DNA of 64,000 bases, taken from the sequence record OR352956.1; one strand, written 5' to 3'. Of this stretch, positions 1-62,174 are shown piece by piece; position 1 is the stretch's first letter, and every line of letters starts with the position of its first letter. The DNA comes from Escherichia phage AV126. A program made the translations under genes and the position numbers. The notes under the pieces are model-generated. The model made no database searches and was not told the origin of the DNA. It saw nothing but the letters and a program-made list of their open reading frames with translations.

Positions 1-165
1 AGAGGAAACAAAATGAATACATCTAATCGCGCAGAAAAAATTCAATCTTCCAAGATCCGCAAGGCCTGGAACGAGGAAGTGATCCGCAAAGGCGACAAGC
101 GTAATAAAACAAAGCGCGGGAAGAGTGACAAATATAATTGGATGGATTTAGAGGATTAACATAAC

Positions 166-195
166 AAGGGCGCACCAAGCGCCCTTTCTTTTTAC
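166..195 (+). terminator. rho-independent terminator (GGGCGCACCAAGCGCCC hairpin plus T-run)
   Basis: GC hairpin followed by TTTCTTTTT directly upstream of next gene. Confidence 0.6.
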
Positions 196-214
196 ATGTA
201 GAGGATAAACAAAA

Positions 215-400
215 ATGACTTTAAACGAGCTTAAAACAGCGTACAGCGCAACATTAAAAATAGCCGTGCGTTACCGTGACGAATACGGTTTTATTGCGCA
301 GGGCGTGATCCTGGGCTTTTCTGACGATGGTTTGATCTATGTTGATGCACATTATAACAAGGTTAAACCGGAAAACGTTATTAGCATAAAATATCTTTAA
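215..400 (+). CDS. hypothetical protein (61 aa)
   Basis: ORF with GAGGA SD-like motif upstream; flanked by terminator and next promoter. Confidence 0.5.
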   Translation: MTLNELKTAYSATLKIAVRYRDEYGFIAQGVILGFSDDGLIYVDAHYNKVKPENVISIKYL

Positions 401-485
401 AAACGGTTGACACCATAACCGGACCTGTTAAACTGTATTACATCAGGCGGGGAATAGTTCCCCACCATACAAAAAGGTAAATATT

Positions 486-692
486 ATGATCACCGCAAAA
501 CAAGAAAAAATCATTATCGACGTTGCAGCCGTTGCCGCTATCGCTATTATTGGATCTTATTATGATACCCGTTTCCCGTCGGCTATGCATGAGGTCGCCG
601 CCGTTGCATCAGTTGGCGTACTGTTTTACGTTGGTAAACGCTATTTATCACCAATGATTAACAAGCTGACACCGTGGAAAAATAAAGGTTGA
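486..692 (+). CDS. hypothetical small hydrophobic protein (68 aa)
   Basis: ORF preceded by promoter-like TTGACA and leader hairpin; hydrophobic N-terminal half. Confidence 0.5.
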   Translation: MITAKQEKIIIDVAAVAAIAIIGSYYDTRFPSAMHEVAAVASVGVLFYVGKRYLSPMINKLTPWKNKG

Positions 693-763
693 TCCTGTTT
701 TACATTGTGTTATAGTTATCGTGTAGGGCGGCAATGGTGCCGCGCCCCTTTGAGGATGCAATC

Positions 764-1048
764 ATGAGTAAAGCTAACACCGTGCTAATGTTTTCCCTGA
801 TTAATGATCTCGCTTACTTGTCCAACATGACGCAGGAGGGTAACACATTAACGGCAACATTCACCAATAAGCTTGACCGAGTGATCATCGTCTCACTGAA
901 AACAGTTAGTAAAGGCTTTTACTCGTTAGCTTATCATTGTATCACTGACACCGACGAGACAAGCCAGGACTATAGCGCCCCTTTCCCTGAATCAATGGCA
1001 CGGGAGATCATCGCCGCCGTTGTAAATGATGGTTTGTTTACTGCATAA
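764..1048 (+). CDS. hypothetical protein
   Basis: ORF 734..1048 trimmed to internal ATG at 764, which lies after the leader hairpin and a GAGGA motif. Confidence 0.45.
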   Translation: MSKANTVLMFSLINDLAYLSNMTQEGNTLTATFTNKLDRVIIVSLKTVSKGFYSLAYHCITDTDETSQDYSAPFPESMAREIIAAVVNDGLFTA

Positions 1049-1145
1049 ATAATTTAGAAAAAGGCTTGCAATCATTTTGAGATAGTGTATATTTAATTCA
1101 TAGGGCGGCGGGAATAGTTCCCAAAGCAAACGAGAGGATTACACG

Positions 1146-1265
1146 ATGAGCAAGTACACAGTAGAATACACGGTAGAGAATCCGGCAGTATCCGAAGGTA
1201 AAAAGATGACATTTGCCATCAGTATAATCGCTTTCGTTGTCACTATCTTATCAATCATCTTATAA
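1146..1265 (+). CDS. hypothetical small membrane peptide (39 aa)
   Basis: short ORF with GAGAGGA SD-like motif and hydrophobic C-terminus; below the ORF-track size cutoff. Confidence 0.35.
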   Translation: MSKYTVEYTVENPAVSEGKKMTFAISIIAFVVTILSIIL

Positions 1266-1275
1266 GGTACACACC

Positions 1276-1437
1276 ATGAAAATAGCAGACATTATCAAAG
1301 AGATCGCCCTTGCCACTGGTATCGAGATCGAGGAAGTGATCGCGCTCAATCTTACAGAAAACGATTTGCGCAACTATGAAGCGGAAAGCGTGAAAGCAAG
1401 TGGCGCGGTCCTGGCATATAATCCGGCTAACAAATAG
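1276..1437 (+). CDS. hypothetical protein
   Basis: ORF 1237..1437 trimmed to first ATG (the track start is TTG). Confidence 0.4.
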   Translation: MKIADIIKEIALATGIEIEEVIALNLTENDLRNYEAESVKASGAVLAYNPANK

Positions 1438-1438
1438 T

Positions 1439-1466
1439 TTGACAAGCTGAATCAACCTGATAAGAT
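1439..1466 (+). promoter_or_regulatory. sigma70-like promoter (TTGACA - 16 nt - TAAGAT)
   Basis: consensus -35 and near-consensus -10 upstream of leader hairpin and gene 1518. Confidence 0.55.
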
Positions 1467-1517
1467 GTATGACATAGGGGCGACAAGCGCCCCGCCTAAC
1501 AGAAGAGAGAAAAAATC

Positions 1518-1796
1518 ATGACCATCACCAAATTATCTACCGAAGAGATCACCAACATTCTGACTACTAATCTGCAAGATTGGAAGCGTGAAGCCGATTT
1601 GCAAGCGGTTTGCAAGCTGAATGTAGAGTTAACAGAAAGCGACATTGACGCCATTATTAACCCTGATTTCTATGATGCTATTCATGATGATTCTATTATC
1701 CTTGAAACACTATTAGATAATACTTGGATCAATCCCGATTTGGCAGCTTATGACCGTAGCGCCTTTATCACTATCCACAATATCTATAACCGTTAA
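1518..1796 (+). CDS. hypothetical protein (92 aa)
   Basis: ORF with AGAGAGA SD-like motif; own promoter and leader hairpin. Confidence 0.55.
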   Translation: MTITKLSTEEITNILTTNLQDWKREADLQAVCKLNVELTESDIDAIINPDFYDAIHDDSIILETLLDNTWINPDLAAYDRSAFITIHNIYNR

Positions 1797-1918
1797 GGGG
1801 CGTAGCATGAATCCGAGAGATATGCAATCATGGAAAGGGTGCGACGATCTAAGCGCCTTGCGCAATAAGTCAAGCCGTAACCTTAGACGGTTGGAAGCAA
1901 AGAAAAAGAAAAAATAGT

Positions 1919-1946
1919 TTGACAAGTCGGCTTAGTCTGGTAATAT
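1919..1946 (+). promoter_or_regulatory. sigma70-like promoter (TTGACA - 16 nt - TAATAT)
   Basis: consensus -35/-10 followed by GTAGGGCGGCAATGGTGCCGC leader hairpin. Confidence 0.55.
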
Positions 1947-1995
1947 GTATCTTGTAGGGCGGCAATGGTGCCGCTCACAAGAAGAGAGAAAAATC

Positions 1996-2280
1996 ATGGA
2001 AATCACAAAAAGCCTAACTAATTATGCAGCACGTCGCGGATTATGTTTAACCGTTGAAAACTTAGGGAAAGAAGACTTTTTGTGTTTTTGGGAGCTTGAA
2101 AATGATTGCGAGTGGATGTTTTCCTATTCTATCTGCGAAGATCAAAACGGTTGTTTGTTAACCTGGCGCGGTAATATCTATTTACCGGAAGAAATTAAAG
2201 AAGAGTTACCAGGTACAATCATGACAGAGAGACAGCTTAAGGAAGTGATCAATTTTGTAGGGCAAAACATTAAAAAATAA
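1996..2280 (+). CDS. hypothetical protein
   Basis: ORF 1945..2280 trimmed to ATG at 1996 after leader hairpin and SD-like motif. Confidence 0.5.
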   Translation: MEITKSLTNYAARRGLCLTVENLGKEDFLCFWELENDCEWMFSYSICEDQNGCLLTWRGNIYLPEEIKEELPGTIMTERQLKEVINFVGQNIKK

Positions 2281-2281
2281 T

Positions 2282-2310
2282 TTGACAGCACGCAAACAAC
2301 GTAGTAAAGT
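2282..2310 (+). promoter_or_regulatory. sigma70-like promoter (TTGACA - 17 nt - TAAAGT)
   Basis: consensus -35, 17 nt spacer, -10-like hexamer, followed by leader hairpin. Confidence 0.55.
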
Positions 2311-2365
2311 TTACCACATAGGGCGGCGGAATGGTCCACCGCTCACAACAGAAGAGAAACAAATC

Positions 2366-2536
2366 ATGATCCCGACTATGTTTTATGTATCGCGCAAAGG
2401 TCACAATATTTTTTGGTCTGAAGATTTAAATGAAGCCATGACGTTTGCCCGTGATCGTGTTGCTATCGGTGGCGTTAACATCACCGTAACCGATGAAAAT
2501 GGCATTGAATACTATAACGGCGACGATGAAGAGTAA
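2366..2536 (+). CDS. hypothetical protein
   Basis: ORF 2282..2536 trimmed to ATG at 2366 downstream of promoter, hairpin and SD-like motif. Confidence 0.5.
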   Translation: MIPTMFYVSRKGHNIFWSEDLNEAMTFARDRVAIGGVNITVTDENGIEYYNGDDEE

Positions 2537-2602
2537 TTAATAAGGCGGGGAATACTTCCCGCCACGCAGTGAATTTTCCGTTTGGGAAGTAAAAAATAAA
2601 TC

Positions 2603-2630
2603 TTGACGATAATTTGTTATCTGATAGAAT
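2603..2630 (+). promoter_or_regulatory. sigma70-like promoter (TTGACG - 16 nt - TAGAAT)
   Basis: near-consensus hexamers followed by leader hairpin. Confidence 0.5.
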
Positions 2631-2682
2631 GTATTTCGTAGGGCGGGGCAATAAGGCAACGCCCATTAATGAGGGTAGAATC

Positions 2683-2787
2683 ATGTTAGAGAAAATTTTC
2701 ACGGTTGCAGTAGTTGGCCTGGCGTTATCGGTTGGAGTGGTTGCAACTATGGCTAATATGATCCTATCTTCCCACGGTATCGGCTAA
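2683..2787 (+). CDS. hypothetical hydrophobic peptide (34 aa)
   Basis: short ORF with GAGGG SD-like motif directly after promoter and hairpin. Confidence 0.3.
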   Translation: MLEKIFTVAVVGLALSVGVVATMANMILSSHGIG

Positions 2788-2797
2788 GGTGAAACAA

Positions 2798-3013
2798 ATG
2801 ATCACGAATAAGACAGGTAAAACGGAATTTTTACGCGGCTTGCAAGTTGGTAAACCTGAGATCTGGCATTGTACTAAATCCGCGCATAATGAAATGAAAG
2901 ATTTTACCGCTACTTTACAACGTGTTAAAATATCTATCACACAGAAAAAAGCCTTGTTAGTAGTAGAAAACGAGATCCCGCAAACTATTATTATTGTCGA
3001 GCGTACAGCATGA
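2798..3013 (+). CDS. hypothetical protein
   Basis: ORF 2789..3013 (GTG) trimmed to ATG at 2798; AAGGTG SD-like motif. Confidence 0.45.
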   Translation: MITNKTGKTEFLRGLQVGKPEIWHCTKSAHNEMKDFTATLQRVKISITQKKALLVVENEIPQTIIIVERTA

Positions 3014-3396
3014 AAACAGAAATCATTATTGAAATCATCAACGGTTATAAAGAAGCCTTTATTTTTGCTGAATCAGCAAGGGATCATGAAGGTAATTTTA
3101 TTGAAAACTTAGACGATTATGATTTTTCTCCTAGCGCGGACGAACGGATCGCCCAGGATGTAACAGCCTTTATTAATGCTAATCTTGCCGCTATCTCTGA
3201 GGCAATGAGCGACGGCGCAACAGCCAACCAGATCGGGAATGATTTACATTTTACCCGTAACGGTCACGGCGTAGGCTTTTGGGATCGCCCTGAAATATAC
3301 ACCACTAACACGGCGAACCGCCTAACCAATGCAGCTAAGTTTATGCCGAACGTGTCGGCTTACATTGGTGAAGATAATTTGATTTATATTGAATAA
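3010..3396 (+). CDS. hypothetical acidic protein (128 aa)
   Basis: ORF whose ATG overlaps the upstream stop (ATGA coupling). Confidence 0.55.
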   Translation: MKTEIIIEIINGYKEAFIFAESARDHEGNFIENLDDYDFSPSADERIAQDVTAFINANLAAISEAMSDGATANQIGNDLHFTRNGHGVGFWDRPEIYTTNTANRLTNAAKFMPNVSAYIGEDNLIYIE

Positions 3397-3402
3397 AAAG
3401 TA

Positions 3403-3430
3403 TTGACACAGATCGCCAGTGTGCTAATAT
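3403..3430 (+). promoter_or_regulatory. sigma70-like promoter (TTGACA - 16 nt - TAATAT)
   Basis: consensus hexamers followed by leader hairpin GGGCGGCAATGGTGCCGCC. Confidence 0.55.
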
Positions 3431-3477
3431 TTACCACGTAGGGCGGCAATGGTGCCGCCGATAATGAGGAAAGTAAA

Positions 3478-3777
3478 ATGGAAACTATCGCTATTGTTAC
3501 CGTAGAAAAACTGGTTGTTGGTGATGTATTCGCGTTAATGGTGCCTAACAGCAGCAAGCTGGGCGCTTATGAAGTAATGGATCATAAAAATGAATCATTT
3601 GGCGACGGTTGCACAATGGCGGTAAAATCTTTAAAGGATGGAATCATCCGCCAGGCTAACTGGCACAAAGGGAATCAAGTCGGTTTAATATCAGCTAATT
3701 TCTTGCCAGAAGAGCAAACGTTAGACCAACTATCAGGCGGTAAGACGTTAGCCGAACTACTGGAAACAGCGATCTAA
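3478..3777 (+). CDS. hypothetical protein (99 aa)
   Basis: ORF with SD-like motif after promoter and leader hairpin. Confidence 0.55.
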   Translation: METIAIVTVEKLVVGDVFALMVPNSSKLGAYEVMDHKNESFGDGCTMAVKSLKDGIIRQANWHKGNQVGLISANFLPEEQTLDQLSGGKTLAELLETAI

Positions 3778-3821
3778 TCAACAAAGGGGCGGCAACGCCC
3801 CACATCAGAAAGGAAAAGATT

Positions 3822-4058
3822 ATGAGTATTGCAACAGTATTAAACGCCGTTAAAACCGCTGAATCATCCGGCTTGCATGTTGAGCTTATAGATCAACCAG
3901 GTGGCGATCTCCTTGTCCAGGTTTACCCGCCGAAAGTAGGGGATGATTATTATTGGGCTTATTCTGATACGTTCGAACAAGTAGACACGAAAGCGATCAC
4001 GGCTTTTATTTTAAAAGCTATTGAAGAAAATAACTTTCATCATAACATCAATCAATAA
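3822..4058 (+). CDS. hypothetical protein (78 aa)
   Basis: ORF with AGGAAA SD-like motif; preceded by GGGGCGGCAACGCCCC hairpin. Confidence 0.5.
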   Translation: MSIATVLNAVKTAESSGLHVELIDQPGGDLLVQVYPPKVGDDYYWAYSDTFEQVDTKAITAFILKAIEENNFHHNINQ

Positions 4059-4112
4059 ACCATAAGCGGGGCGGTAACGCCCCATTAAACGCAATAGGAA
4101 GAGGATAGACGC

Positions 4113-4403
4113 ATGAAAAAGATGATCGCAGTAGTTGCCCTGGTTGTTGGTATTAACGCGCCTGTACTGGCTAATGAGTTGCCAGAATCCATCACGCTAA
4201 CCGATATCAACGCAATAAACCGGATCGGCGTTAATTATCGCCTATGCCTTGCCGCTAAAACTTTCCAGGACGGCACGACAGAATACCACGGATTCGAGGG
4301 TATCCGCTGCGGTGAGCTTGCACGCGACCTTAAGGAAGATCCAGACCTTGAGGCCATACCGATGACCGTAAACGGTAAAGCTTACGTAAACCGCCAACAA
4401 TGA
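4113..4403 (+). CDS. hypothetical secreted protein (N-terminal signal peptide)
   Basis: MKKMIAVVALVVGINAPVLA hydrophobic leader with Ala-x-Ala-like cleavage context. Confidence 0.5.
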   Translation: MKKMIAVVALVVGINAPVLANELPESITLTDINAINRIGVNYRLCLAAKTFQDGTTEYHGFEGIRCGELARDLKEDPDLEAIPMTVNGKAYVNRQQ

Positions 4404-4534
4404 GAAAGATAATCATCACAATGGGGATCGTAGTAGCAACGCTGGCGCTTATCCCCTTCATGGTTGAACATGTGCTGATCAGTGTTGTCCTTGTAGTCAG
4501 TGACCTATTGGAAACGGTTGGCAACTGGTTTTAA
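4400..4534 (+). CDS. hypothetical small membrane peptide (44 aa)
   Basis: short hydrophobic ORF, ATGA-coupled to the upstream gene. Confidence 0.35.
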   Translation: MRKIIITMGIVVATLALIPFMVEHVLISVVLVVSDLLETVGNWF

Positions 4535-4787
4535 GATAAATAAACAGGGCTTGTTTTTGTCCTGTTTTTTGTTATACTTATTGAACGGGCGGCACTTGGG
4601 AGCAGGTGAAGATAATCACCGGAAGATCCCGCTATATATCGATAGCTAATACCTATCAAACAACAAAACATCAAAGAGATAAACTATCAAATCTTTACAA
4701 TCCTACCTATTGACACCGGATCACGCTTACATTATTATTTATCACGTAGGGCGAGCAATACAGCAAGCCCACAAAGAGGAAAAGAAG

Positions 4788-5156
4788 ATGAGCAAATCAG
4801 CAATTAAAGCAGTTGAAAAAGCGCAAGAAGTGATCGCAACGTCAACCACTGGCGCAAAGGTTAATCTCGTTGGTTATCTGACAGATGAAGCTATCCGTAA
4901 AAATTGGCGTAATGCTGATTTACTGGCTTGCTTATTGATTAATAGTGTCGCTAATGCTTTCCAGTGTGAAACAGCCGAGAGCCTGGAGGAAAACTTGTTT
5001 GATAATATGGATCAAGCCATTGAAACCTATATACAATCAAACCTGGATAGCTGGAACAGTAAGACATGGCCTGACAGCTTACGCGATACAACTGATCAAC
5101 TGATCCGCCTTGCCCTGATGGTTGAACGCGATAACGTTCACAACCGCACAAAGTAA
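4788..5156 (+). CDS. hypothetical protein
   Basis: ORF 4710..5156 trimmed to ATG at 4788 after promoter, hairpin and AGAGGA motif. Confidence 0.5.
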   Translation: MSKSAIKAVEKAQEVIATSTTGAKVNLVGYLTDEAIRKNWRNADLLACLLINSVANAFQCETAESLEENLFDNMDQAIETYIQSNLDSWNSKTWPDSLRDTTDQLIRLALMVERDNVHNRTK

Positions 5157-5296
5157 GATTATACAAGGGGCGCACTAAGCGCCCTTTAACGTAAAGAAAT
5201 GTAAATAATGCGCTATCCCCTATTGACAGGGGATCGGCGTTATATTATATTTAACTCACTGGCAGCAAACAACGAAACGAAACAAAGGACAACACC

Positions 5297-5716
5297 ATGA
5301 ACATTAAATCAAATAATCCAGCTTACTCCTTCGATAACGCTTTTTGTCACGGTAGCGCCGCCAAAGGCTTCGAAATCGATGGTAAATTGGTTATCGTGAA
5401 CGTTGACGGGGAAGAGGTTGCAGTGTATCCGGTAAACGATGTTAAAAGCCGTTTACAATGCCGCATGGATGTTACCGCATATCAGCTTGATCCGGTCCGT
5501 GTAGTTGCCCTGGTATTAGAGGAAGAGATCAAAGCAATGCATCACAGTAATAAGTTTATTGGTGACGCGCAGGATAATATGAACGTTTGCCGCCATAAAG
5601 TTAATGAAGCATTGAAAGAATATGGTTTTAAGGATCTGATGATCAAACGTGATGAAAAATTCCGCTTTCGTAATGACCTGGCAAACCGGATCTACTCAAT
5701 CTATGAAGCGTTATAA
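5297..5716 (+). CDS. hypothetical protein (139 aa)
   Basis: ORF with AAGGA SD-like motif; followed by terminator. Confidence 0.55.
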   Translation: MNIKSNNPAYSFDNAFCHGSAAKGFEIDGKLVIVNVDGEEVAVYPVNDVKSRLQCRMDVTAYQLDPVRVVALVLEEEIKAMHHSNKFIGDAQDNMNVCRHKVNEALKEYGFKDLMIKRDEKFRFRNDLANRIYSIYEAL

Positions 5717-5730
5717 TCGACAACAAAACA

Positions 5731-5759
5731 AGGGGCGCACCAAGCGCCCTTTCTTTTTG
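5731..5759 (+). terminator. rho-independent terminator (same hairpin as at 166-195)
   Basis: GGGGCGCACCAAGCGCCC hairpin plus TTTCTTTTT. Confidence 0.6.
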
Positions 5760-6299
5760 CCTGAACAATGTTGATAGCTTTCGCCTATGAAAAACCGACA
5801 CAGAACAAAACTGAATAAATCGCGGTATCGAGCTAATCAACCATCAAACGAATAACCATACATCCCAGGGCAACAGGCTGTTAGAGAGCTATTTAGAGCG
5901 GTTAAAATCGATCTACAACCAACAACAAACCATCAAAAACACCCTTTTACCTCCTTTCTAGTGCAATGATAACCATTATCATCTACCCATGATTATCTAT
6001 GCAATATAAGCGCATAATTATAATGTTGATAATAGTTCGCAACAACTAACCAACAAACAACATAAAACAATAAGCAAACTAATCATAATCAAAGGAATAA
6101 TAGCAAGATGATTGATAACGACAAACAATCAAACCATGATGAATACTAAGCAAGATAACGATAACACGACAAAACAACCAACTAACGAACAATAACAAAC
6201 GAAACCATTAAAAGATCAACTATTAGCAAAATAGTGTCTATTGCCATAATAGTGACTGAATGAAATCATTACAAAACGAATCATTCCAAGGATCATCAT

Positions 6300-6460
6300 T
6301 AGCACGCTACGCCGGACACGTAGCGAGCTAATAATAAGCCAACTACACCCCAACAATCATAACCATCGGTGACGGTTATTTCTTGTTACTGCGTAGCTTG
6401 CAATAATTGCAAGCGTAATGACGCTTACACTTATTGCGCTGGCTTATTATTAGCATTATA
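6300..6460. repeat. nested inverted-repeat cluster in non-coding region
   Basis: 15-bp inverted repeat GCTAATAATAAGCCA (6327-6341) / TGGCTTATTATTAGC (6440-6454) enclosing palindrome CTTGCAATAATTGCAAG and hairpin CGCTACG-CCGGACA-CGTAGCG. Confidence 0.6.
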
Positions 6461-7275
6461 TGTAATTACCAAGATCATAACATTAGCGCAATAACAATAA
6501 TCATTACAATAATTACATAAGGAAACAATTAGCATAGCAATAATTATGGGGGCAATGGGAGGATGATTATCATCATTCCGATACATTGCACACTATGCAC
6601 ATAATAAGATAAAAAGCAATAATCTTGGGGGCGAAATGTTACCGCCACAGGCGGGAATGTTGAGCATCTTCTCTTAAACGTAAATAAAATCAGAAAATTC
6701 TTGATTTATTTTAGTTTTTATGTTAATAAACGTTTAAATAATAATCATTCTCATATAAATAATAGTCTGCTTGTCATGAGCGGGATTAGTTGACATTGTT
6801 CCGTCATATGATGAAGTTGCCAAGCCATTGATAAATAAGTGTTTGTGTGATTTATAATCAAGTGGCCCACCTTGTCGCTACGTTGGCATGAGCCTTGCAT
6901 AAGTCATTGAATACGAATGATAATTATTCTCATTCGCATGATATTTGGGAATTGTCGCTGCGTGGACCTGACGGCCCGAAAATTCGCGTTAAGCACTTCT
7001 TACGTATGCGCCATGATTTTTGCCATATCATATTGATTCTATTAGATATTCTTGCCATGATTGCCATGAAACAGGGTGTCCCGAAATAATCTCTCCCCGT
7101 AGATATTTTGGGTTACTTTTTATACAAGAGTGGGGTGTCAAAAATAATCGGTATATATGGGATAATTGATAGGAATCCCCTATGATAATTCGATTGTAAT
7201 TCCCTAAGATTGATCGTATGATGTTGGTGATTGATGATTGCCATGAAAGATGGCTAACGATGAGAGGAGATTATC

Positions 7276-7644
7276 ATGCAAGAGAGTAAAAATATTCCGT
7301 TGAGCAGTGCAGCATTGATTCAATTCTACAAAGCATGGATGGCTGATCACTACAGCATGGATCGCACGGAGAATGGACTGTGTTTATGTATTCATCATTT
7401 TGTGCGATCTCATCTTATGAAAGATGTGGAGAATCCCCGATGGTATGCCGACATAATAGATAGCTTGTTGTTTGAGATGCGTGCTCAGTTCAAAGACGCT
7501 GGCATTGATACGTGCGCACCCTTCAACACTGGATATGCGGATTACTTGATTGAAGTGGAAGATAAAATGTGTCACCTGAATCCACTTCGCATTCAGTGGG
7601 TGAAAGATCGCATTGAAGATGCAAATAATGCTTGCATTGAATAA
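7276..7644 (+). CDS. hypothetical protein, paralog family A (copy 1 of 5)
   Basis: GAGAGGAGA SD; shares the GLC...YPF...WVKDR pattern with the ORFs at 10714, 14040, 17338 and 18643. Confidence 0.6.
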   Translation: MQESKNIPLSSAALIQFYKAWMADHYSMDRTENGLCLCIHHFVRSHLMKDVENPRWYADIIDSLLFEMRAQFKDAGIDTCAPFNTGYADYLIEVEDKMCHLNPLRIQWVKDRIEDANNACIE

Positions 7645-7714
7645 AAATGTCTGTATGATGTTTGTATAAGATATGCAATACCGCGCATAACAAACAGCTA
7701 ATGAGGAGATTGGA

Positions 7715-7945
7715 ATGCATAGCATGAAACGCATGAAAATTCGTATTGAGAATGATGGTGGTTATAAAGGATTGGCACATGCAAAATTTCCACTTGTGCT
7801 GGAAGCTACGGTGGAATACAGTGGGCTTGCTCATGTGCGATTCTCGAAGATGATGGAAGTGCAGGAATGGTTTTGGGACGAGATAGATGCACGAGAAGGA
7901 GAAGATTATGTTTTCTTTCCTCACGAATATGAAATTATCTATTAA
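7715..7945 (+). CDS. hypothetical protein, paralog family B (copy 1 of 2)
   Basis: GAGGAG SD; shares EWF...GEDYVFF motif with the ORF at 11424. Confidence 0.55.
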   Translation: MHSMKRMKIRIENDGGYKGLAHAKFPLVLEATVEYSGLAHVRFSKMMEVQEWFWDEIDAREGEDYVFFPHEYEIIY

Positions 7946-7957
7946 GGGTTGTGTGCA

Positions 7958-8197
7958 ATGATCACACCACAACAGAATGAAGCAGCAATGGATCTTCTTG
8001 ATAGTTTGTATTTCGATAATTGGTACTCTGAATGTGAATGGATGAATGTGCAAACTCTGAAAGAGAAGACAAAAGCGTTGATTACAGTAGATCAATTTCT
8101 TGCAGAGACGGAAAGAATGAATTATGATATGGCATCTCGCGCACGACGCGTTTCCATTTTCAATAAAATGTTAGCATTATGGGGAGGTAGAAAATGA
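7958..8197 (+). CDS. hypothetical protein
   Basis: ORF 7949..8197 (TTG) trimmed to ATG at 7958. Confidence 0.45.
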   Translation: MITPQQNEAAMDLLDSLYFDNWYSECEWMNVQTLKEKTKALITVDQFLAETERMNYDMASRARRVSIFNKMLALWGGRK

Positions 8198-8655
8198 GAC
8201 AACCATCTATACTGGAAGCGCATGTGCAGTGTGTTGTAGATTATGTCAAAGAACACTCAAGTTTATTAAATGTAACCTGTGCAGTGCAAAATGATGTAGG
8301 TATTGTCTGTGTGCAACATATCTTATCTGAAACTCGTTATGAAGTGTTTCGTGCCACGTTGTTTGGATGTGATCGGGTGCATGTAAACTTCCTGGACTCC
8401 AATTATCGTTATGCTTTAGAAAATATTGATGACTATCTTCCTTGCTCTCCGACAGGATATGTAATGGTAACAGCAAACGAAGTAACACCGAGCAACAGTG
8501 AACGGGAAGCTTTGTTACGGAAGAAAATACGCCAACTGCAAGTGTTGAATGAAATGCAAGAAGAGATTGAAAAAGAACTAAAAGAAGATTTTGGTATACT
8601 TCCAAAAGACGCTTTGAAATGGTATGATGAACTAGGAGGAGAAAGTTATGAATAA
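8194..8655 (+). CDS. hypothetical protein (153 aa)
   Basis: GGGGAGG SD; ATGA overlap with upstream gene. Confidence 0.55.
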   Translation: MRQPSILEAHVQCVVDYVKEHSSLLNVTCAVQNDVGIVCVQHILSETRYEVFRATLFGCDRVHVNFLDSNYRYALENIDDYLPCSPTGYVMVTANEVTPSNSEREALLRKKIRQLQVLNEMQEEIEKELKEDFGILPKDALKWYDELGGESYE

Positions 8656-27758: not shown

Positions 27759-27788
27759 AATATTTCTCCTCTATTGGTTGATAGGTTA

Positions 27789-27817
27789 AGTTTATCAAGC
27801 TTCCAGATTTCTGTCAA
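27789..27817 (-). promoter_or_regulatory. sigma70-like promoter (TTGACA - 17 nt - TAAACT) for the 27758..25091 operon
   Basis: on minus strand: terminator hairpin, then TTGACAGAAATCTGGAAGCTTGATAAACT, then SD and ATG. Confidence 0.55.
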
Positions 27818-60248: not shown

Positions 60249-60323
60249 GGCCCTGTAGCTCAATGGGAGAGCTGTCGGCTCATAACCGATAGGTAGCTGG
60301 ATCGAAACCAGCCAGGGCCACCA
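60249..60323 (+). tRNA. tRNA with CAT anticodon (Met or lysidine-Ile2 type)
   Basis: cloverleaf folded by eye: acceptor GGCCCTG/CAGGGCC, anticodon loop CTCATAA, T-arm GCTGG-ATCGAAA-CCAGC, CCA encoded. Confidence 0.7.
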
Positions 60324-60325
60324 AC

Positions 60326-60400
60326 GTCTTTATGGTGTAATGGATAGCACAGGAGTCTTCTAAACTCTTAGTCAAGGTTCGATTCCTTGTAAAGACACCA
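60326..60400 (+). tRNA. tRNA-Arg (TCT)
   Basis: acceptor GTCTTTA/TAAAGAC, anticodon loop CTTCTAA, T-loop TTCGATT, CCA encoded. Confidence 0.7.
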
Positions 60401-60645
60401 GAACATTTTAACATGAATTAGCTCAAGTGATTTGAACCCACTACTGATCATGGTGGCAGAGAATGAGGCAAGTATGTCAGACATTATAAACAAAGGCCAC
60501 GGTTATATTAGAAGACATAAATGCTCGAAGAGCACCGTTCGTGGAGAACGGGGGTTGGTGGAGTCACCATTCATGGTAAAATGTTTTAAAAAACTATTGA
60601 CAACAAACATTATTTTATGTTAGATTATAAGTATGGAAGGGCAAA

Positions 60646-60727
60646 TCGACGTGGCGACGAAAACGGTCTTGAAAACCGCCGAGCTTGAAAGAGCCTTGGG
60701 AGTTCGACTCTCCCTCCTTCAGCCAGA
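60646..60727 (+). tRNA. tRNA-like element, possibly degenerate tRNA-Ser (TGA)
   Basis: canonical T-arm GGGAG-TTCGACT-CTCCC and candidate anticodon loop CTTGAAA, but imperfect acceptor and D arms; promoter-like TTGACA at 60597. Confidence 0.3.
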
Positions 60728-60729
60728 TT

Positions 60730-60815
60730 AGGTAGATTGGTGAAATGGTAGCCACGACAGTTTGCTAAACTGTAGTCGGAAACGGCGTGTAGGTTCGAGT
60801 CCTACATCTACCGCC
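60730..60815 (+). tRNA. tRNA-Ser (GCT)
   Basis: acceptor GGTAGAT/ATCTACC, anticodon loop TTGCTAA, long variable arm, G discriminator, CCA encoded. Confidence 0.7.
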
Positions 60816-60946
60816 AAGTTCTTTTTAATGTAGCTTACTTTAGCAGAGTAAATCTTCGGCAAGTGGCGGTAACCACTTTACCGATAACTCATAGTTAGTG
60901 GTGCGAACACTGGCTATTTTAAAAAGAATTTAAATATTAGTATTTA

Positions 60947-61034
60947 GGTGAGTTAATTCCGTAGGGGTAGCGGGGCAGACTGTAAATCTGTTATCATTGC
61001 GATTCGGGTGGTTCGACTCCATCACTCACCACCA
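60947..61034 (+). tRNA. tRNA-Tyr (GTA)
   Basis: acceptor GGTGAGT/ACTCACC, anticodon loop CTGTAAA, long variable arm, T-loop TTCGACT. Confidence 0.7.
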
Positions 61035-61040
61035 AATTAA

Positions 61041-61126
61041 GATGAGTTGGCTGAATGGTTTAAGCGGCGGACTGTTAATCCGTGTTCGAAAGAACAATAT
61101 AGGTTCGAATCCTATACTCATCGCCA
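61041..61126 (+). tRNA. type-II (long variable arm) tRNA with GTT (Asn) anticodon
   Basis: perfect acceptor GATGAGT/ACTCATC, Ser-like D arm, anticodon arm GCGGA-CTGTTAA-TCCGT, variable hairpin GTTC-GAAA-GAAC, T-arm ATAGG-TTCGAAT-CCTAT, G discriminator. Confidence 0.55.
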
Positions 61127-61133
61127 GAATTAT

Positions 61134-61211
61134 GGACTTGTAGAGTTAAGGTAAACCCCCCAGTCGCCAATAGGCTTCTGGAATTGCAGGTATCGAATCC
61201 TGCCGAGTCCC
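61134..61211 (+). ncRNA. tRNA-like element, unresolved
   Basis: 7-bp acceptor-like pairing GGACTTG/CGAGTCC and T-arm-like GCAGG...CCTGC but no canonical anticodon arm found by eye. Confidence 0.25.
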
Positions 61212-61217
61212 AGCATT

Positions 61218-61292
61218 GCTCCTATAGTATAATGGCTATTACAACGGTTTTGTAATCCGTGGATCTCTGTTCGATTCAGTGTGGGAGCACCA
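61218..61292 (+). tRNA. tRNA-Thr (TGT)
   Basis: acceptor GCTCCTA/TGGGAGC, anticodon loop TTTGTAA (one mismatch in anticodon stem), CCA encoded. Confidence 0.55.
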
Positions 61293-61565
61293 ACACAACA
61301 TTAAGAGCACTGTGATTGATCGTCGTATCCTGTGCACAAGGTCTGCTCGAAAGACAGTGTTCTTAGTATTGTGTTGATCACAAAAAGAGTCACCCGAAAC
61401 TTGACCGGAGTAGGGTTGGATGGGGAAAAATGAGAAGCGGCTCTCCCATTGACAGCAACGAAGAATAATATTTGACTTTGGTTTTGTATTATTTTAAGTT
61501 AGCTTACCGAACGTAGGGCTAGTCACCCAACGGGATACTCGTCACTGTCCCAATCAATAAAAGTC

Positions 61566-61595
61566 TTGACAACAAATAGTAAAATGTAGTATAGT
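61566..61595 (+). promoter_or_regulatory. sigma70-like promoter (TTGACA - 18 nt - TATAGT) driving the downstream tRNA group
   Basis: consensus -35 and near-consensus -10 about 11 nt upstream of tRNA-Gly. Confidence 0.6.
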
Positions 61596-61606
61596 AAATA
61601 TATAGG

Positions 61607-61680
61607 GCGTTCTTGGTGTAGCGGTAGCATTCCGTCCTTCCAAGTCGGCGGCACGAGTTCGATCCTCGTAGAACGCTCCA
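61607..61680 (+). tRNA. tRNA-Gly (TCC)
   Basis: acceptor GCGTTCT/AGAACGC, anticodon loop CTTCCAA, U discriminator, CCA encoded. Confidence 0.65.
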
Positions 61681-61778
61681 AATTATTTAATAAAGGGTTG
61701 CCAGAAAACTTTCTCTTTTACTCATGGTTTTCTCCTTCTCTCACACTTCTTCTGGTTGCCCTTCATTAAATGATTTAT

Positions 61779-61854
61779 TGGTTTGTAGTGTAGTCCGGTA
61801 GCACACGACACTTTGACTGTCGTAGGTTTGGTTCAAATCCAGACAGACCAGCCA
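61779..61854 (+). tRNA. tRNA-Gln (TTG)
   Basis: acceptor TGGTTTG/CAGACCA with U1-A72, anticodon stem CGACA/TGTCG, loop CTTTGAC, G discriminator. Confidence 0.7.
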
Positions 61855-61859
61855 TATAA

Positions 61860-61936
61860 CGGAATTTAGCTCAGTTTGGTAGAGCATACGCTTTGGGAGC
61901 GTAGGGTCGCAGGTTCGAATCCTGCAATTCCGACCA
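61860..61936 (+). tRNA. tRNA-Pro (TGG)
   Basis: acceptor CGGAATT/AATTCCG, D arm GCTC-AGTTTGGTA-GAGC, anticodon loop TTTGGGA, T-loop TTCGAAT. Confidence 0.75.
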
Positions 61937-61942
61937 ATTTAA

Positions 61943-62016
61943 TGTTTCGTAGTTCAATGGTAGAACCCACGACTGATAATCGTGAGACACAAGTTCGATT
62001 CTTGTCGAAACAACCA
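61943..62016 (+). tRNA. tRNA-Ile (GAT)
   Basis: acceptor TGTTTCG/CGAAACA, anticodon stem CACGA/TCGTG, loop CTGATAA, T-loop TTCGATT. Confidence 0.75.
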
Positions 62017-62018
62017 GT

Positions 62019-62091
62019 TTCCCGTTAGACTTACAGGATAAGAGTTCCACAGCTTATTGTGATGCTGGTTCGAATCCAGCACGGGATACCC
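62019..62091 (+). ncRNA. tRNA-like element, anticodon unresolved
   Basis: canonical T-arm GCTGG-TTCGAAT-CCAGC and acceptor-like TTCCCGT/ACGGGAT, but D and anticodon arms could not be folded by eye. Confidence 0.3.
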
Positions 62092-62094
62092 AAT

Positions 62095-62174
62095 AGCGGG
62101 ATAGAGGAGTCTGGTCGTCCTCGCCAGTTTCATATGCTGGAGATCATCGGTTCGAATCCGATTCCCGCCTCCAA
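62095..62174 (+). tRNA. tRNA-Met (CAT), 1:72 mismatch
   Basis: acceptor AGCGGGA/TCCCGCC with unpaired A1/C72, anticodon stem CCAGT/GCTGG, loop TTCATAT, T-loop TTCGAAT. Confidence 0.6.

What the first reader, a model, noticed from the sequence alone, without database searches (positions are those of the whole stretch)
5760..7275. 1.5 kb non-coding, strand-skewed region with nested inverted repeats separating two compositionally distinct gene blocks
After the terminator at 5731-5759 there is no convincing ORF until 7276. The first ~550 bp are strongly A+C-rich on the plus strand with CAACAA/AACAAA repeats. 6300-6460 holds a 15-bp inverted repeat pair (6327-6341 / 6440-6454) enclosing the perfect palindrome CTTGCAATAATTGCAAG (6397-6413) and a 7-bp-stem hairpin (6304-6326). 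7040-7260 has repeated GATTGCCATGAAA and GATAATT motifs. The block to the left looks GC-richer and promoter-dense by eye; the block to the right is AT-rich and operon-like. This resembles an origin, packaging or injection-control site, or a mosaic junction.
Basis: seen in the sequence. Interest (0 to 1): 0.55.

Follow-up and report, generated by a model that had tools for sequence, protein, structure and literature searches.

The report
Phage genome-end region with terminal repeat
This gene-free 1.5 kb is where the linear DNA of a phAPEC8-like coliphage begins and ends: it holds the ~329-bp terminal repeat and its two cutting sites, unexpectedly strong binding sites for the host iron regulator Fur, an IHF-type site, and a conserved folded element whose role is still unknown.

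Summary
In detail: 5760-7275 has no conserved ORF, is strand-skewed, and holds the stated inverted repeats. The window is a Phapecoctavirus (phAPEC8-like myovirus). The gap is conserved across the subfamily Stephanstirmvirinae, and part of it also in Vequintavirinae. It contains the physical genome ends. The published 328-bp direct terminal repeat (DTR) of phage Schickermooser maps to window 6663-6991, and the 342-bp DTR of BME3 maps to the homologous positions. Both DTR boundaries fall in one invariant motif, GTTR^AGCA. So the two "compositionally distinct blocks" are the right and left ends of the virion DNA. New details, not found in the papers I searched: three position-conserved boxes that are true Fur-box sequences (a matrix built from them picks out the E. 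coli ent/fep Fur operators). Two of these flank a conserved IHF-type site inside the DTR. The nested inverted repeat is a ~160-nt three-way junction with 16 compensatory pairs, and it folds better as the minus strand. No evidence supports a DnaA-type origin, coding potential or internal strong promoters. The most likely role is cis-acting genome maturation (cutting, repeat regeneration, packaging) with host-factor input. An RNA or origin role for the folded element is not excluded.

The parts
5730..5759 (.). Rho-independent terminator closing the right-end early gene cluster; it also scores as a terminator on the minus strand
   Evidence: Conserved in all 9 aligned genomes and in Vequintavirinae TH18.
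5760..5846 (.). Conserved block A, including the operator-like palindrome TGATAG-N7-CTATGA (5772-5790) and GTATCGAGCTAAT (5825-5837, repeated at 6320-6332)
   Evidence: It is the only part that still matches Vequintavirinae phages by BLAST.
5759..6306 (+). G-poor, A-rich arm (the minus strand is T-rich and C-poor). Sequence is poorly conserved but the composition is conserved in all genera.
5965..5983 (.). Fur box 1 (AATGATAACCATTATCATC, 22.5 bits). Its centre lies 207-216 bp after the terminator in every genome examined, including a Vequintavirinae phage.
6296..6458 (-). Structured element, a three-way junction: closing stem 6327-6341/6440-6454, long hairpin with inner stem 6359-6379, hairpin 6400-6416/6421-6437 that competes with the invariant palindrome 6396-6414, plus the adjacent hairpin 6305-6325
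   Evidence: 92.9% of cells paired, 16 pairs with compensatory change, 0/500 shuffles. The same architecture appears in independent MFE folds of 5 clades. There are 84 G.U cells on the minus strand versus 1 on the plus strand.
6455..6662 (.). Variable spacer (190-465 bp in relatives) with ATTAGC repeats (6482, 6528) and a GC hairpin (6642-6654) just before the left cut site
6659..6667 (+). Left boundary motif GTTG^AGCAT; the DTR and the virion left end start at 6663
6663..6991 (.). Direct terminal repeat (one collapsed copy in this window)
   Evidence: The Schickermooser record starts at the equivalent of 6663 and ends at 6991, and its first 329 nt equal its last 329 nt. A 328-bp repeat is published. 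Eleven phage records start or end at the equivalent of 6663. The BME3 342-bp DTR maps to homologous positions.
6737..6755 (.). Fur box 2 (21.2 bits), centre 84 bp from the DTR left end
6821..6833 (-). IHF-type core TATCAATGGCTTG (WATCAANNNNTTR), near the middle of the DTR
   Evidence: present 157-169 bp from the left end in all 10 genomes. Consensus positions are kept while the four N positions vary.
6916..6934 (.). Fur box 3 (23.8 bits), centre 61-65 bp from the DTR right end in all genomes
6988..6996 (+). Right boundary motif GTTA^AGCAC; the virion right end is at 6990/6991
6992..7275 (+). Left-end leader of the first operon: best sigma-70-like site TTGCCA-18-AATAAT (7061-7090), TTGCCATGA repeats (7052-7069, 7241-7249), operator-like palindrome TGATAGGAATCCCCTATGA (7167-7185), and an RBS before the ATG at 7276

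Best explanation
The region is the terminal (concatemer-junction) region of a Phapecoctavirus genome. SHOWN by comparison with relatives: window 6663-6991 is the short direct terminal repeat (DTR) found at both ends of virion DNA. The part to its left (5760-6662) is the non-coding tip of the genome's right end. The part to its right (6992-7275) is the leader of the left-end operon. Both DTR boundaries lie at the same place in one invariant 8-mer, GTTR^AGCA, about 328 bp apart in direct orientation. INFERRED: these are the two sites cut by the packaging nuclease. As in T7-type phages, the single repeat copy in the concatemer must be duplicated before or during cutting. SHOWN at sequence level: the DTR carries two top-scoring Fur boxes on either side of an IHF-type site, with a third Fur box in the right arm, all at fixed distances from the landmarks. 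INFERRED: host Fur and IHF bind there. An IHF bend between the two Fur-bound sites would fold the repeat and bring its two cut sites together, much as IHF does in lambda cosB. Alternatively, Fur could make events at the termini iron-dependent. SHOWN: the nested inverted repeat is a structure-conserved three-way junction that folds better as the minus strand. INFERRED (about 40%): it acts as single-stranded minus-strand DNA, displaced when synthesis runs leftwards through the repeat, and serves as a stop or priming signal for rebuilding the right-end repeat. A minus-strand RNA (about 30%) is the main alternative for this sub-element.
For: Identity of the phage and conservation of the gap. Termini: the Schickermooser record has 329 identical nt at both ends, mapping to 6663-6991, and a 328-bp repeat is published. 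Eleven records start or end at the equivalent of 6663, and four end or start at about 6990. BME3 has a PhageTerm DTR of 342 bp and 342 identical nt at both record ends, starting TGTTG|AGCC and ending CGCGTT|AAGCAC. The distance between the two motifs is 328-331, 341-342 or 343 bp in three clades, matching the published sizes. Fur: a PWM built only from the phage boxes ranks four sites in the fepB-entC, fepD-entS and fepA-fes control regions as the top 4 of 40 kb of E. coli K-12. The window's three boxes score 21-24 bits against 15.6 or less elsewhere in 64 kb. Box positions are conserved to within a few bp in 10 genomes, and box 1 also in a Vequintavirinae phage. IHF core. Structure. AT skew flips at the DTR start. 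No TTGACA-type promoter lies inside the region, although such promoters are this phage's norm. T7-type need for repeat duplication, and a hairpin intermediate: PMC5923468 and PMC4281155. The group has a T7-like Pol A and a gp4-like primase-helicase (rV5 paper).
Against: No read data exist for this phage itself, so the ends are inferred by homology (95-99% identity in the DTR). Some GenBank records may start at 6663 by convention rather than by measurement. Other records break elsewhere in the gap: ESCO13 at 5794, ESCO5 at 6915, REC at 6737. Binding of Fur, IHF or terminase is untested. The strand preference of the folded element is partly a consequence of base composition, and the tested structure was derived from a minus-strand fold (caveat). 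In the Vequintavirinae analogue there is no strand preference. G.T pairs that are invariant are more typical of RNA than of DNA hairpins. The closing stem could instead be an inverted pair of protein-binding iterons, since KP13-26 has three further direct copies.
Confidence: 0.85

Rival explanations
1. The nested inverted repeat plus the skewed arm is a gene for a minus-strand non-coding RNA. It would have a structured 5' domain at 6458-6296 and a G/U-rich tail ending at the bidirectional terminator near 5733. It could act as a regulator, a protein sponge, or a ColE1-RNA-II-like replication primer.
For: Compensatory changes in four helices. G.U pairs occur almost only on the minus strand, several of them invariant. 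The minus strand is 17-24 kcal/mol more stable in all 14 sequences. The terminator also scores on the minus strand. A -10-like hexamer abuts the element in 4 of 7 clades.
Against: No conserved promoter was found. This phage's recognisable promoters are strong TTGACA types, and none lies in the region. A start site set by the adjacent -10-like hexamer would remove half of the closing stem. No Rfam family matches. The loops are 3 nt. No transcript data were found.
Confidence: 0.3
2. The right arm (5760-6662) is the replication origin: iteron-like ATTAGC repeats, inverted repeats, an AT-rich easily melted stretch and host-factor sites. This is not exclusive of the terminus reading.
For: ATTAGC/GCTAAT is enriched 10-fold. 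There are three direct GGTATTATTAGC copies in KP13-26 and TTATTGTGTC iterons in TH18 at the same place. GC content is 32-36%. T7 has secondary origins next to its ends (my own knowledge).
Against: There is no DnaA-box cluster: 1 site, about the number expected by chance. The repeats are irregularly spaced and short. The local skew dip is confined to 600 bp, and the genome-scale skew follows transcription, as also reported for rV5. No initiator gene is recognisable nearby.
Confidence: 0.2
3. The Fur boxes are ordinary operators, so the region is an iron-responsive control region. Fur-Fe would repress weak promoters in the DTR and right arm that drive the left-end operon or a non-coding transcript. 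Alternatively, the replicating boxes would titrate Fur and de-repress host iron uptake.
For: The box sequences are as good as or better than the native ent/fep operators. The conserved TCTTGATTT lies 30 bp upstream of box 2 with a 17-bp spacing to a TA-starting hexamer in all genera. Multicopy Fur boxes are known to titrate Fur in E. coli (the FURTA assay, my own knowledge).
Against: The candidate -10 hexamers are poor (3-4 of 6, no T at the last position), and none of the boxes overlaps a convincing promoter. Fixed distances to the DTR ends and to an IHF site suggest an architectural role rather than a promoter role.
Confidence: 0.3
4. The region encodes small unannotated proteins, as the ETEC-TG and WPEC records annotate.
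For: The ETEC-TG record lists 7 minus-strand CDS of 36-69 aa here. Stop-free stretches reach 80 aa.
Against: None of these ORFs is kept across genera. Similarity appears in several frames and both strands at once. Indels are not multiples of three. phAPEC8, ESCO13, Schickermooser and most other records annotate nothing here.
Confidence: 0.03
5. T5-like injection-stop or first-step-transfer control site.
Against: The repeat is 0.33 kb, not 10 kb. No pre-early gene block lies inside the repeat. There are no DnaA boxes. Nothing links this family to two-step DNA transfer.
Confidence: 0.04

Closest known systems
Direct terminal repeats of Stephanstirmvirinae (Schickermooser 328 bp, Korf et al. 2019; BME3 342 bp, 2025)
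   Same: Homologous sequence at 95-99% identity, with the same boundaries. This window simply carries one collapsed copy.
   Different: The papers give only the length. In the papers I read, the boundary motif, host-factor sites and neighbouring structured element are not described. The DTR feature in the BME3 record is misplaced by 73 nt.
T7/T3 concatemer junction (short DTR, pac signals in the right-end arm, repeat duplication with a hairpin intermediate)
   Same: It has a short non-coding DTR with unique cis elements to the left of the repeat. The repeat must be duplicated. The replication proteins are T7-like.
   Different: There is no sequence similarity. This is a myovirus of 150 kb with no phage RNA polymerase, so the role of transcription pausing at the junction cannot be the same. 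Host Fur/IHF sites are not known at the T7 junction (my own knowledge).
Lambda cos (cosN-cosB with IHF site I1 between terminase-binding R sites) and P1 pac (IHF site flanked by repeated hexamers)
   Same: An IHF-type site sits between repeated protein-binding boxes, next to the nuclease cut site. This suggests a bent nucleoprotein complex.
   Different: Here the flanking boxes look like host Fur operators rather than terminase sites. There are two cut sites 328 bp apart instead of one staggered nick pair. This is a resemblance in logic only; no binding has been tested.
The 'non-coding' box of phage rV5 (Kropinski et al. 2013)
   Same: It is the homologous locus in the sister subfamily: the same terminator and block A, Fur boxes at the same distance from the terminator, and its own nested inverted repeats.
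   Different: It was left unexplained in that paper. In the locus examined, the iteron and stem sequences are different and GTTRAGCA is absent.
E. coli Fur operators (fepA-fes, fepD-entS, fepB-entC)
   Same: The same 19-bp / 7-1-7 palindrome, and the phage-derived matrix retrieves them.
   Different: They are not placed over a recognisable promoter. They sit in a virulent phage's terminal repeat.
Single-strand initiation (ssi) signals / primosome assembly sites of ssDNA phages and plasmids
   Same: A 100-160-nt multi-hairpin element that works on one strand only. It is placed where a primer would be needed to copy a displaced strand.
   Different: There is no sequence or family relationship, and the function is purely inferred.

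Membership tests
Short direct terminal repeat / physical genome end (DTR-type packaging) | The same sequence is present at both ends of linear virion DNA | tested here: met
   Met in relatives: Schickermooser has 329 identical nt at both record ends and BME3 has 342 nt. The window is 95-99% identical over this stretch.
Short direct terminal repeat / physical genome end (DTR-type packaging) | Sharp read-start peaks and doubled coverage in this phage's own sequencing data | not testable with these tools
   No reads are available. Published PhageTerm or coverage results exist only for relatives.
Short direct terminal repeat / physical genome end (DTR-type packaging) | Defined, conserved cleavage sites at both boundaries | tested here: met
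   GTTR^AGCA is found at both boundaries in all 10 Stephanstirmvirinae genomes examined, with spacing equal to the published DTR sizes. Only 3 copies occur in the 64-kb window. Cleavage itself was not tested.
Fur box (Fur-Fe2+ operator of Enterobacteriaceae) | Match to the 19-bp consensus GATAATGATAATCATTATC / 7-1-7 inverted repeat | tested here: met
   The boxes match 14-15 of 19 consensus positions and 12-13 of 14 in the 7-1-7 form (my count). None is within 3 mismatches of the full 19-mer. A motif search gave 13 hits against 2.6 expected, with the 3 best in the region.
Fur box (Fur-Fe2+ operator of Enterobacteriaceae) | Sequence model is interchangeable with known operators | tested here: met
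   The phage-only PWM ranks the ent/fep operators as the top 4 of 40 kb. The best non-operator hit is 12.0 bits, against 15.8-23.7 bits for the operators.
Fur box (Fur-Fe2+ operator of Enterobacteriaceae) | Bound by Fur; iron-dependent effect | not testable with these tools
   Needs EMSA or footprinting, FURTA, or infection of fur mutants.
IHF binding site | WATCAANNNNTTR core with an A/T-rich 5' flank | tested here: met
   TATCAATGGCTTG at 6833-6821 (minus strand) preceded by TTATTT. There are 8 cores in 64 kb. The core is kept in 10 genomes with variable N4. Binding was not tested.
Structured RNA gene | Secondary structure supported by compensatory substitutions | tested here: met
   16 of 61 pairs show changes on both sides, 92.9% of cells are paired, 0/500 shuffles reach this, and slid controls give 25-53%.
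Structured RNA gene | Own promoter and terminator, or evidence of a transcript | tested here: inconclusive
   A minus-strand terminator is plausible. No conserved promoter was found. No transcriptome paper was found.
Structured RNA gene | Membership of a described RNA family | tested here: not met
   Rfam 15 gives nothing at gathering thresholds and only chance-level hits at E<=10.
Replication origin (DnaA/iteron type) | Cluster of DnaA boxes or regularly spaced iterons next to an AT-rich unwinding element | tested here: not met
   There is 1 DnaA-like box, about the number expected by chance. ATTAGC repeats are enriched but irregularly spaced. An AT-rich stretch is present.
Replication origin (DnaA/iteron type) | Genome-scale skew switch at the site | tested here: not met
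   Cumulative skew turns where gene orientation turns (about 23.5 kb and 58 kb). Only a local dip occurs at 5.8-6.6 kb.
T5-type terminal repeat with injection-stop signal | About 10-kb repeat carrying pre-early genes, with a repeat- and palindrome-rich stop region containing DnaA boxes | tested here: not met
   The repeat is 0.33 kb and gene-free. There is no DnaA-box cluster.
Protein-coding region | An ORF kept open in relatives, with frame-specific conservation | tested here: not met

The most novel reading that the evidence does not exclude
A large group of virulent enterobacterial myoviruses (Stephanstirmvirinae, and partly Vequintavirinae) has built the host iron sensor Fur, together with IHF, into the nucleoprotein complex at its genome termini. 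Cutting or regeneration of the terminal repeat, or the first transcription from the incoming ends, would then depend on the host's iron state. Each replicated genome would also act as a natural Fur-titrating decoy. Next to this complex lies a strand-specific folded element: a new class of cis-acting ssDNA signal or a new non-coding RNA needed to rebuild the right-end repeat.
Probability: 0.3. Interest if true: 0.75.

Novelty: new variant of a known kind. Interest (0 to 1): 0.55.

Why it matters
Short-DTR packaging is understood in mechanistic detail only for T7/T3. For the large rV5/phAPEC8/phi92-like myoviruses, which are widely used in phage-therapy cocktails, only the length of the repeat has been reported, and the "non-coding box" has been left blank since 2013. 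This analysis places the ends to the nucleotide and proposes a cut-site motif (GTTR^AGCA). That motif can be used to orient and annotate more than 100 deposited genomes, many of which are cut arbitrarily inside this region. The analysis also shows that the region is a densely organised, position-conserved set of sites. The conserved, top-scoring Fur boxes in a virulent phage are unexpected. They give a directly testable link between host iron status and phage DNA maturation or early expression. The structured element gives a concrete handle on how the terminal repeat is regenerated.

Tried and rejected
- Rfam scans, at gathering thresholds on the whole window and at E<=10 on the region, found only tRNAs far away and chance-level hits.
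- A sigma-70 promoter scan of 4500-8500 gave 19 hits against 15 +/- 4.4 expected, so there is no enrichment. Inside the gap there is no strong site apart from 7061. I tried to assign promoters to each Fur box, to the conserved TCTTGATTT and to the minus strand upstream of the element. None is conserved across genera.
- DnaA boxes, GATC density and Chi sites show nothing notable.
- The consensus Fur 19-mer with up to 3 mismatches gave no hit. The boxes have 4-5 mismatches, as real operators do, so I switched to a PWM and a reciprocal test.
- A metagenome scan with the 17-base palindrome gave mostly chance hits. Only 4 of more than 100 loci were true relatives. Two IMG/VR scans returned the same 4 contigs.
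- The DTR coordinates annotated in the BME3 record at first suggested a repeat starting at Fur box 2. Comparing the record ends showed that the annotation is shifted by 73 nt and that the record has an internal duplication.
- Record break points at 5794, 6688, 6737 and 6915 were checked. They are arbitrary or assembler overlaps, for example a 55-nt overlap in ECO340P2.
- The motif AAAATAATNGGTATATA was tested as a phage-specific promoter and is not repeated elsewhere.
- PHROGs and Pfam searches of 8 flanking genes all returned unknown function, so no candidate binding protein emerged.
- Literature searches found no paper on this region, on Fur boxes in these phages, or on their transcriptomes.
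Full report
**What the window is.**
Megablast of 5700-7300 finds 75 phage records. Fifty of them cover at least 80% of the query, and nearly all are Escherichia phages of the genus Phapecoctavirus (phAPEC8-like myoviruses of about 150 kb, subfamily Stephanstirmvirinae) at 92-98% identity. In phAPEC8 the homologous stretch lies between gp17 and gp18. It is annotated with nothing except the terminator. ESCO13, Schickermooser and most other records also leave it empty. A few automatic annotations fill it with 36-69-aa minus-strand CDS.

- The terminator (5730-5752 plus T-run) is predicted on both strands.
- There is no ORF of note.
- The first 548 nt are A 0.44, C 0.22, G 0.13, T 0.22 on the + strand, with GC skew down to -0.30 and AT skew up to +0.38.
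- The contrast between a GC-richer left block and an AT-rich right block is weak: 0.42 versus 0.39.

**It is non-coding and conserved as a unit.**
A blastn search at lower stringency finds the region in 138 records. These include Justusliebigvirus (phi92-like) and unclassified Klebsiella Stephanstirmvirinae. An alignment of nine genomes from four clades shows a gap of 1.5-2.0 kb in all. Invariant blocks are separated by variable stretches, and many indels are not multiples of three. Stop-free stretches from different genera match each other in several frames and on both strands at once. That is the signature of nucleotide-level rather than protein-level conservation.

**The genome ends are inside the region.**
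Many GenBank records begin or end within the gap. With 6700-7100 as query, eight phages have record position 38 aligned to window 6700. These include Schickermooser, BI-EHEC, Ro121lw, WPEC4/6 and three SA_NWU phages. Three more (Mt1B1_P17, WPEC1/2) have the mirror arrangement. All therefore start at the equivalent of 6663. Four records end or start at about 6990.

Korf et al. 2019 reported "a terminal repeat of 328 bp" for Schickermooser. Its record starts at window 6663 and ends at 6991, and its first 329 nt are identical to its last 329 nt.

For the Justusliebigvirus BME3, PhageTerm gave a 342-bp DTR. The two ends of that record share 342 identical nt, running from TGTTG|AGCC to CGCGTT|AAGCAC. 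These are the positions homologous to 6663 and 6990. The DTR feature in that record is misplaced by 73 nt, and the record carries an internal duplication.

In all genomes the distance between the two conserved motifs is 328-331 bp (Phapecoctavirus), 341-342 bp (Justusliebigvirus) or 343 bp (Klebsiella phages). These values match the published sizes.

Both boundaries therefore sit at the same position of the same 8-mer: GTTG^AGCA on the left and GTTA^AGCA on the right. The window has only three copies of GTTRAGCAY in 64 kb. The two flanking gene blocks are thus the right end (1-5716) and the left end (7276 onward) of the linear virion DNA. They are adjacent only in a collapsed or concatemeric map. 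That explains why they look like two different blocks.

**Fur boxes.**
Repeat finding revealed three copies of an 18-nt near-palindrome at 5965, 6737 and 6916. A degenerate search gives 13 hits in the window against 2.6 expected, and the three best are these. They fit the 7-1-7 form of the Fur box (TGATAAT-n-ATTATCA) at 12-13 of 14 positions.

As a reciprocal test, I built a weight matrix from ten distinct phage boxes only and scanned E. coli K-12 600,000-640,000. The four best hits (23.7, 16.8, 15.9 and 15.8 bits) all fall in the fepB-entC, fepD-entS and fepA-fes intergenic regions. These are the classical Fur-controlled promoters of the enterobactin cluster (established knowledge). The best hit anywhere else scores 12.0 bits. 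In the window the three boxes score 24.0, 22.5 and 21.3 bits, and the next best is 15.6.

Their positions are conserved to a few base pairs in ten genomes:
- Box 1 is centred 207-216 bp after the terminator.
- Box 2 lies 84-112 bp from the DTR left end.
- Box 3 lies 61-65 bp from the DTR right end.
- A fourth box, 58-67 bp after box 1, is present in all clades except Phapecoctavirus.

The Vequintavirinae phage TH18 has a homologous ORF-free gap. It shares the terminator and block A, and has Fur boxes 216 and 276 bp after the terminator. The rV5 paper shows this region only as a grey box labelled "non-coding". I found no paper mentioning Fur boxes in these phages.

**An IHF-type site.**
One match to WATCAANNNNTTR lies in the region, at 6833-6821 on the minus strand. 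There are 8 such matches in the whole window. It sits 157-169 bp from the DTR left end in all ten genomes. The consensus positions are kept while the four N positions vary (GCCA, CCCC, TAGT, GTCA, ACTA, ACGA).

The DTR thus reads: left end, 85 bp, Fur box, about 80 bp, IHF site, about 100 bp, Fur box, 61 bp, right end. This layout recalls lambda cosB and P1 pac, where IHF bends DNA between repeated protein-binding sites next to the cut (my own knowledge). It suggests a folded complex that brings the two cut sites together. This is inference; no binding has been tested.

**The nested inverted repeat is a conserved fold.**
The piece of the gap that reaches furthest in BLAST is 6298-6455. Fourteen distinct sequences were collected, including three new clades from IMG/VR and metagenomes. 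RNAalifold finds compensatory changes in the first hairpin, the 15-bp closing stem and the inner hairpin. The inner hairpin keeps its stem with almost entirely different sequences in L019, L028 and L098.

The invariant palindrome (6396-6414) can alternatively pair with 6421-6437. The central bases of the two partners change together, AATAATT/ACTTATT to AATTATT/ACTAATT.

Evidence that the minus strand is the folding strand:
- It is 13-24 kcal/mol more stable in all 14 sequences and has more negative z-scores.
- Independent MFE folds from five clades give the same three-way junction plus hairpin.
- On that structure, 92.9% of cells pair, 16 of 61 pairs show changes on both sides, no shuffle out of 500 reaches this, and slid controls fall to 25-53%.
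- Non-Watson-Crick cells are G.U on the minus strand 84 times and on the plus strand once, so the same helices would be only 83.1% paired on the plus strand.

Two caveats apply. The minus strand is G+T-rich anyway, and the tested structure came from a minus-strand fold.

No Rfam family matches. TH18 has an analogous but unrelated nested repeat at the same place, without strand preference.

**RNA or DNA?**
This phage's recognisable promoters are strong TTGACA-N17-TAnnnT sites. None occurs in the gap on either strand. The best candidate is TTGCCA-18-AATAAT at 7061, which probably serves the left-end operon. No minus-strand promoter is conserved upstream of the element. That weakens, but does not remove, the non-coding RNA reading.

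There is an alternative. In T7-type phages the single repeat copy in the concatemer must be duplicated. The models invoke strand-displacement or primase-initiated synthesis, and a hairpin-ended intermediate has been seen. rV5-like phages have T7-like Pol A and gp4-like primase-helicase genes. If synthesis enters from the right DTR boundary and runs leftwards, the displaced strand is the minus strand. A folded signal 200-460 bp to the left of the repeat is then where a stop or a primer would be needed to rebuild the right-end repeat.

The minus strand is T-rich and C-poor from the terminator up to about 6660, and the AT skew flips at the DTR start. This is what repeated single-strandedness with cytosine deamination would produce. 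All of this paragraph's mechanism is inference.

A third reading concerns the closing stem only. It could be an inverted pair of protein-binding iterons. KP13-26 has three more direct GGTATTATTAGC copies, and ATTAGC is 10-fold enriched in the region.

**Origin?**
- DnaA boxes are not enriched.
- The repeats are irregular.
- The genome-scale skew turns where gene orientation turns, as also reported for rV5.

An origin in the right arm is not excluded and would be compatible with the terminus reading. Nothing specific supports it.

**Verdict.**
The finding is real. Its main identity is known in kind and, for close relatives, already published: it is the terminal region with the short DTR. The boundary motif, the Fur-IHF-Fur layout with conservation across subfamilies, and the strand-specific structured element were not described in any paper I found, and all are testable. 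I therefore rate it as a new variant of a known kind, of moderate interest.

Noticed in passing
window 723-743, 1954-1974, 3438-3458 (also GC hairpins upstream of the genes at 486, 1518, 2614, 4113): The exact 21-mer GTAGGGCGGCAATGGTGCCGC occurs three times, against 0 expected. In phAPEC8 it is annotated as a 'PHIRE promoter', but it lies just downstream of the -10 of TTGACA-type promoters. It is therefore more likely a conserved 5' stem-loop of early transcripts than a promoter.
   Followed up: partly
window 4640-4658, 5772-5790, 7167-7185, 27779-27797: The operator-like palindrome TGATAG-N7-CTATCA gives 11 strand-hits against 1.5 expected. At 27779 it overlaps the -10 region of a TTGACA promoter. 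Two copies bracket the non-coding region and are conserved in all genera. This probably marks the site of an unidentified phage regulator.
   Followed up: partly
L011/L012 (BME3, PP239276.1): The 'DTR-L' feature in this GenBank record is shifted 73 nt from the true record end. In addition, the first 415 nt are duplicated internally (99% identity), which suggests an assembly or editing artefact.
   Followed up: yes
L004 4484-4630 (KP13-26) compared with L009 (phi1_175008): The module 'GC hairpin + TGTTGAGC' that precedes the DTR is present three times, 67-69 bp apart, in KP13-26 but once in its close relative. KP13-26 also has three direct GGTATTATTAGC copies after the structured element.
   Followed up: partly
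L142 3440-5330 (Vequintavirinae phage TH18): This is a homologous 1.6-kb ORF-free gap with Fur boxes at the same distances from the terminator. It has a different nested inverted repeat (an 18-20-bp outer stem and a 16-bp GTTAACAATTTTGCAA inner repeat) and repeated TTATTGTGTC units. GTTRAGCA is absent, so the termini of that subfamily may lie elsewhere or use another motif.
   Followed up: partly
window 7276-7644; L001 7022-7724: The first left-end gene belongs to a paralogous family (phrog_2510) that is present as a tandem pair in phAPEC8 (gp18, gp19). The window has a single divergent member, 47-51% identical to both, so copy number and sequence vary right next to the genome end.
   Followed up: partly
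window 4399-4417: The fourth-best Fur-matrix hit (15.4-15.6 bits) overlaps the start codon of a 44-aa ORF (MRKIII...). A similar box over a start codon occurs in phi1_175008. This may be a coding coincidence or a real operator.
   Followed up: no
window 60249-62173: A cluster of 10-11 tRNA genes (Met x2, Arg, Ser, Asn, Thr, Gly, Gln, Pro, Ile), as is usual for this genus.
   Followed up: no
search hits: Records named Campylobacter phage B15/C3, and Pseudomonas and Acinetobacter phages, are about 93% identical to these coliphages over the region. The host labels are probably wrong, or the records are contaminants.
   Followed up: no
window 6220-6254: A tandem pair of 18-nt units (CTATTAGCAAAATAGTGT / CTATTGCCATAATAGTGA), each a small hairpin. 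One unit is missing in phAPEC8 and in phiWec186. Their meaning is unknown.
   Followed up: no
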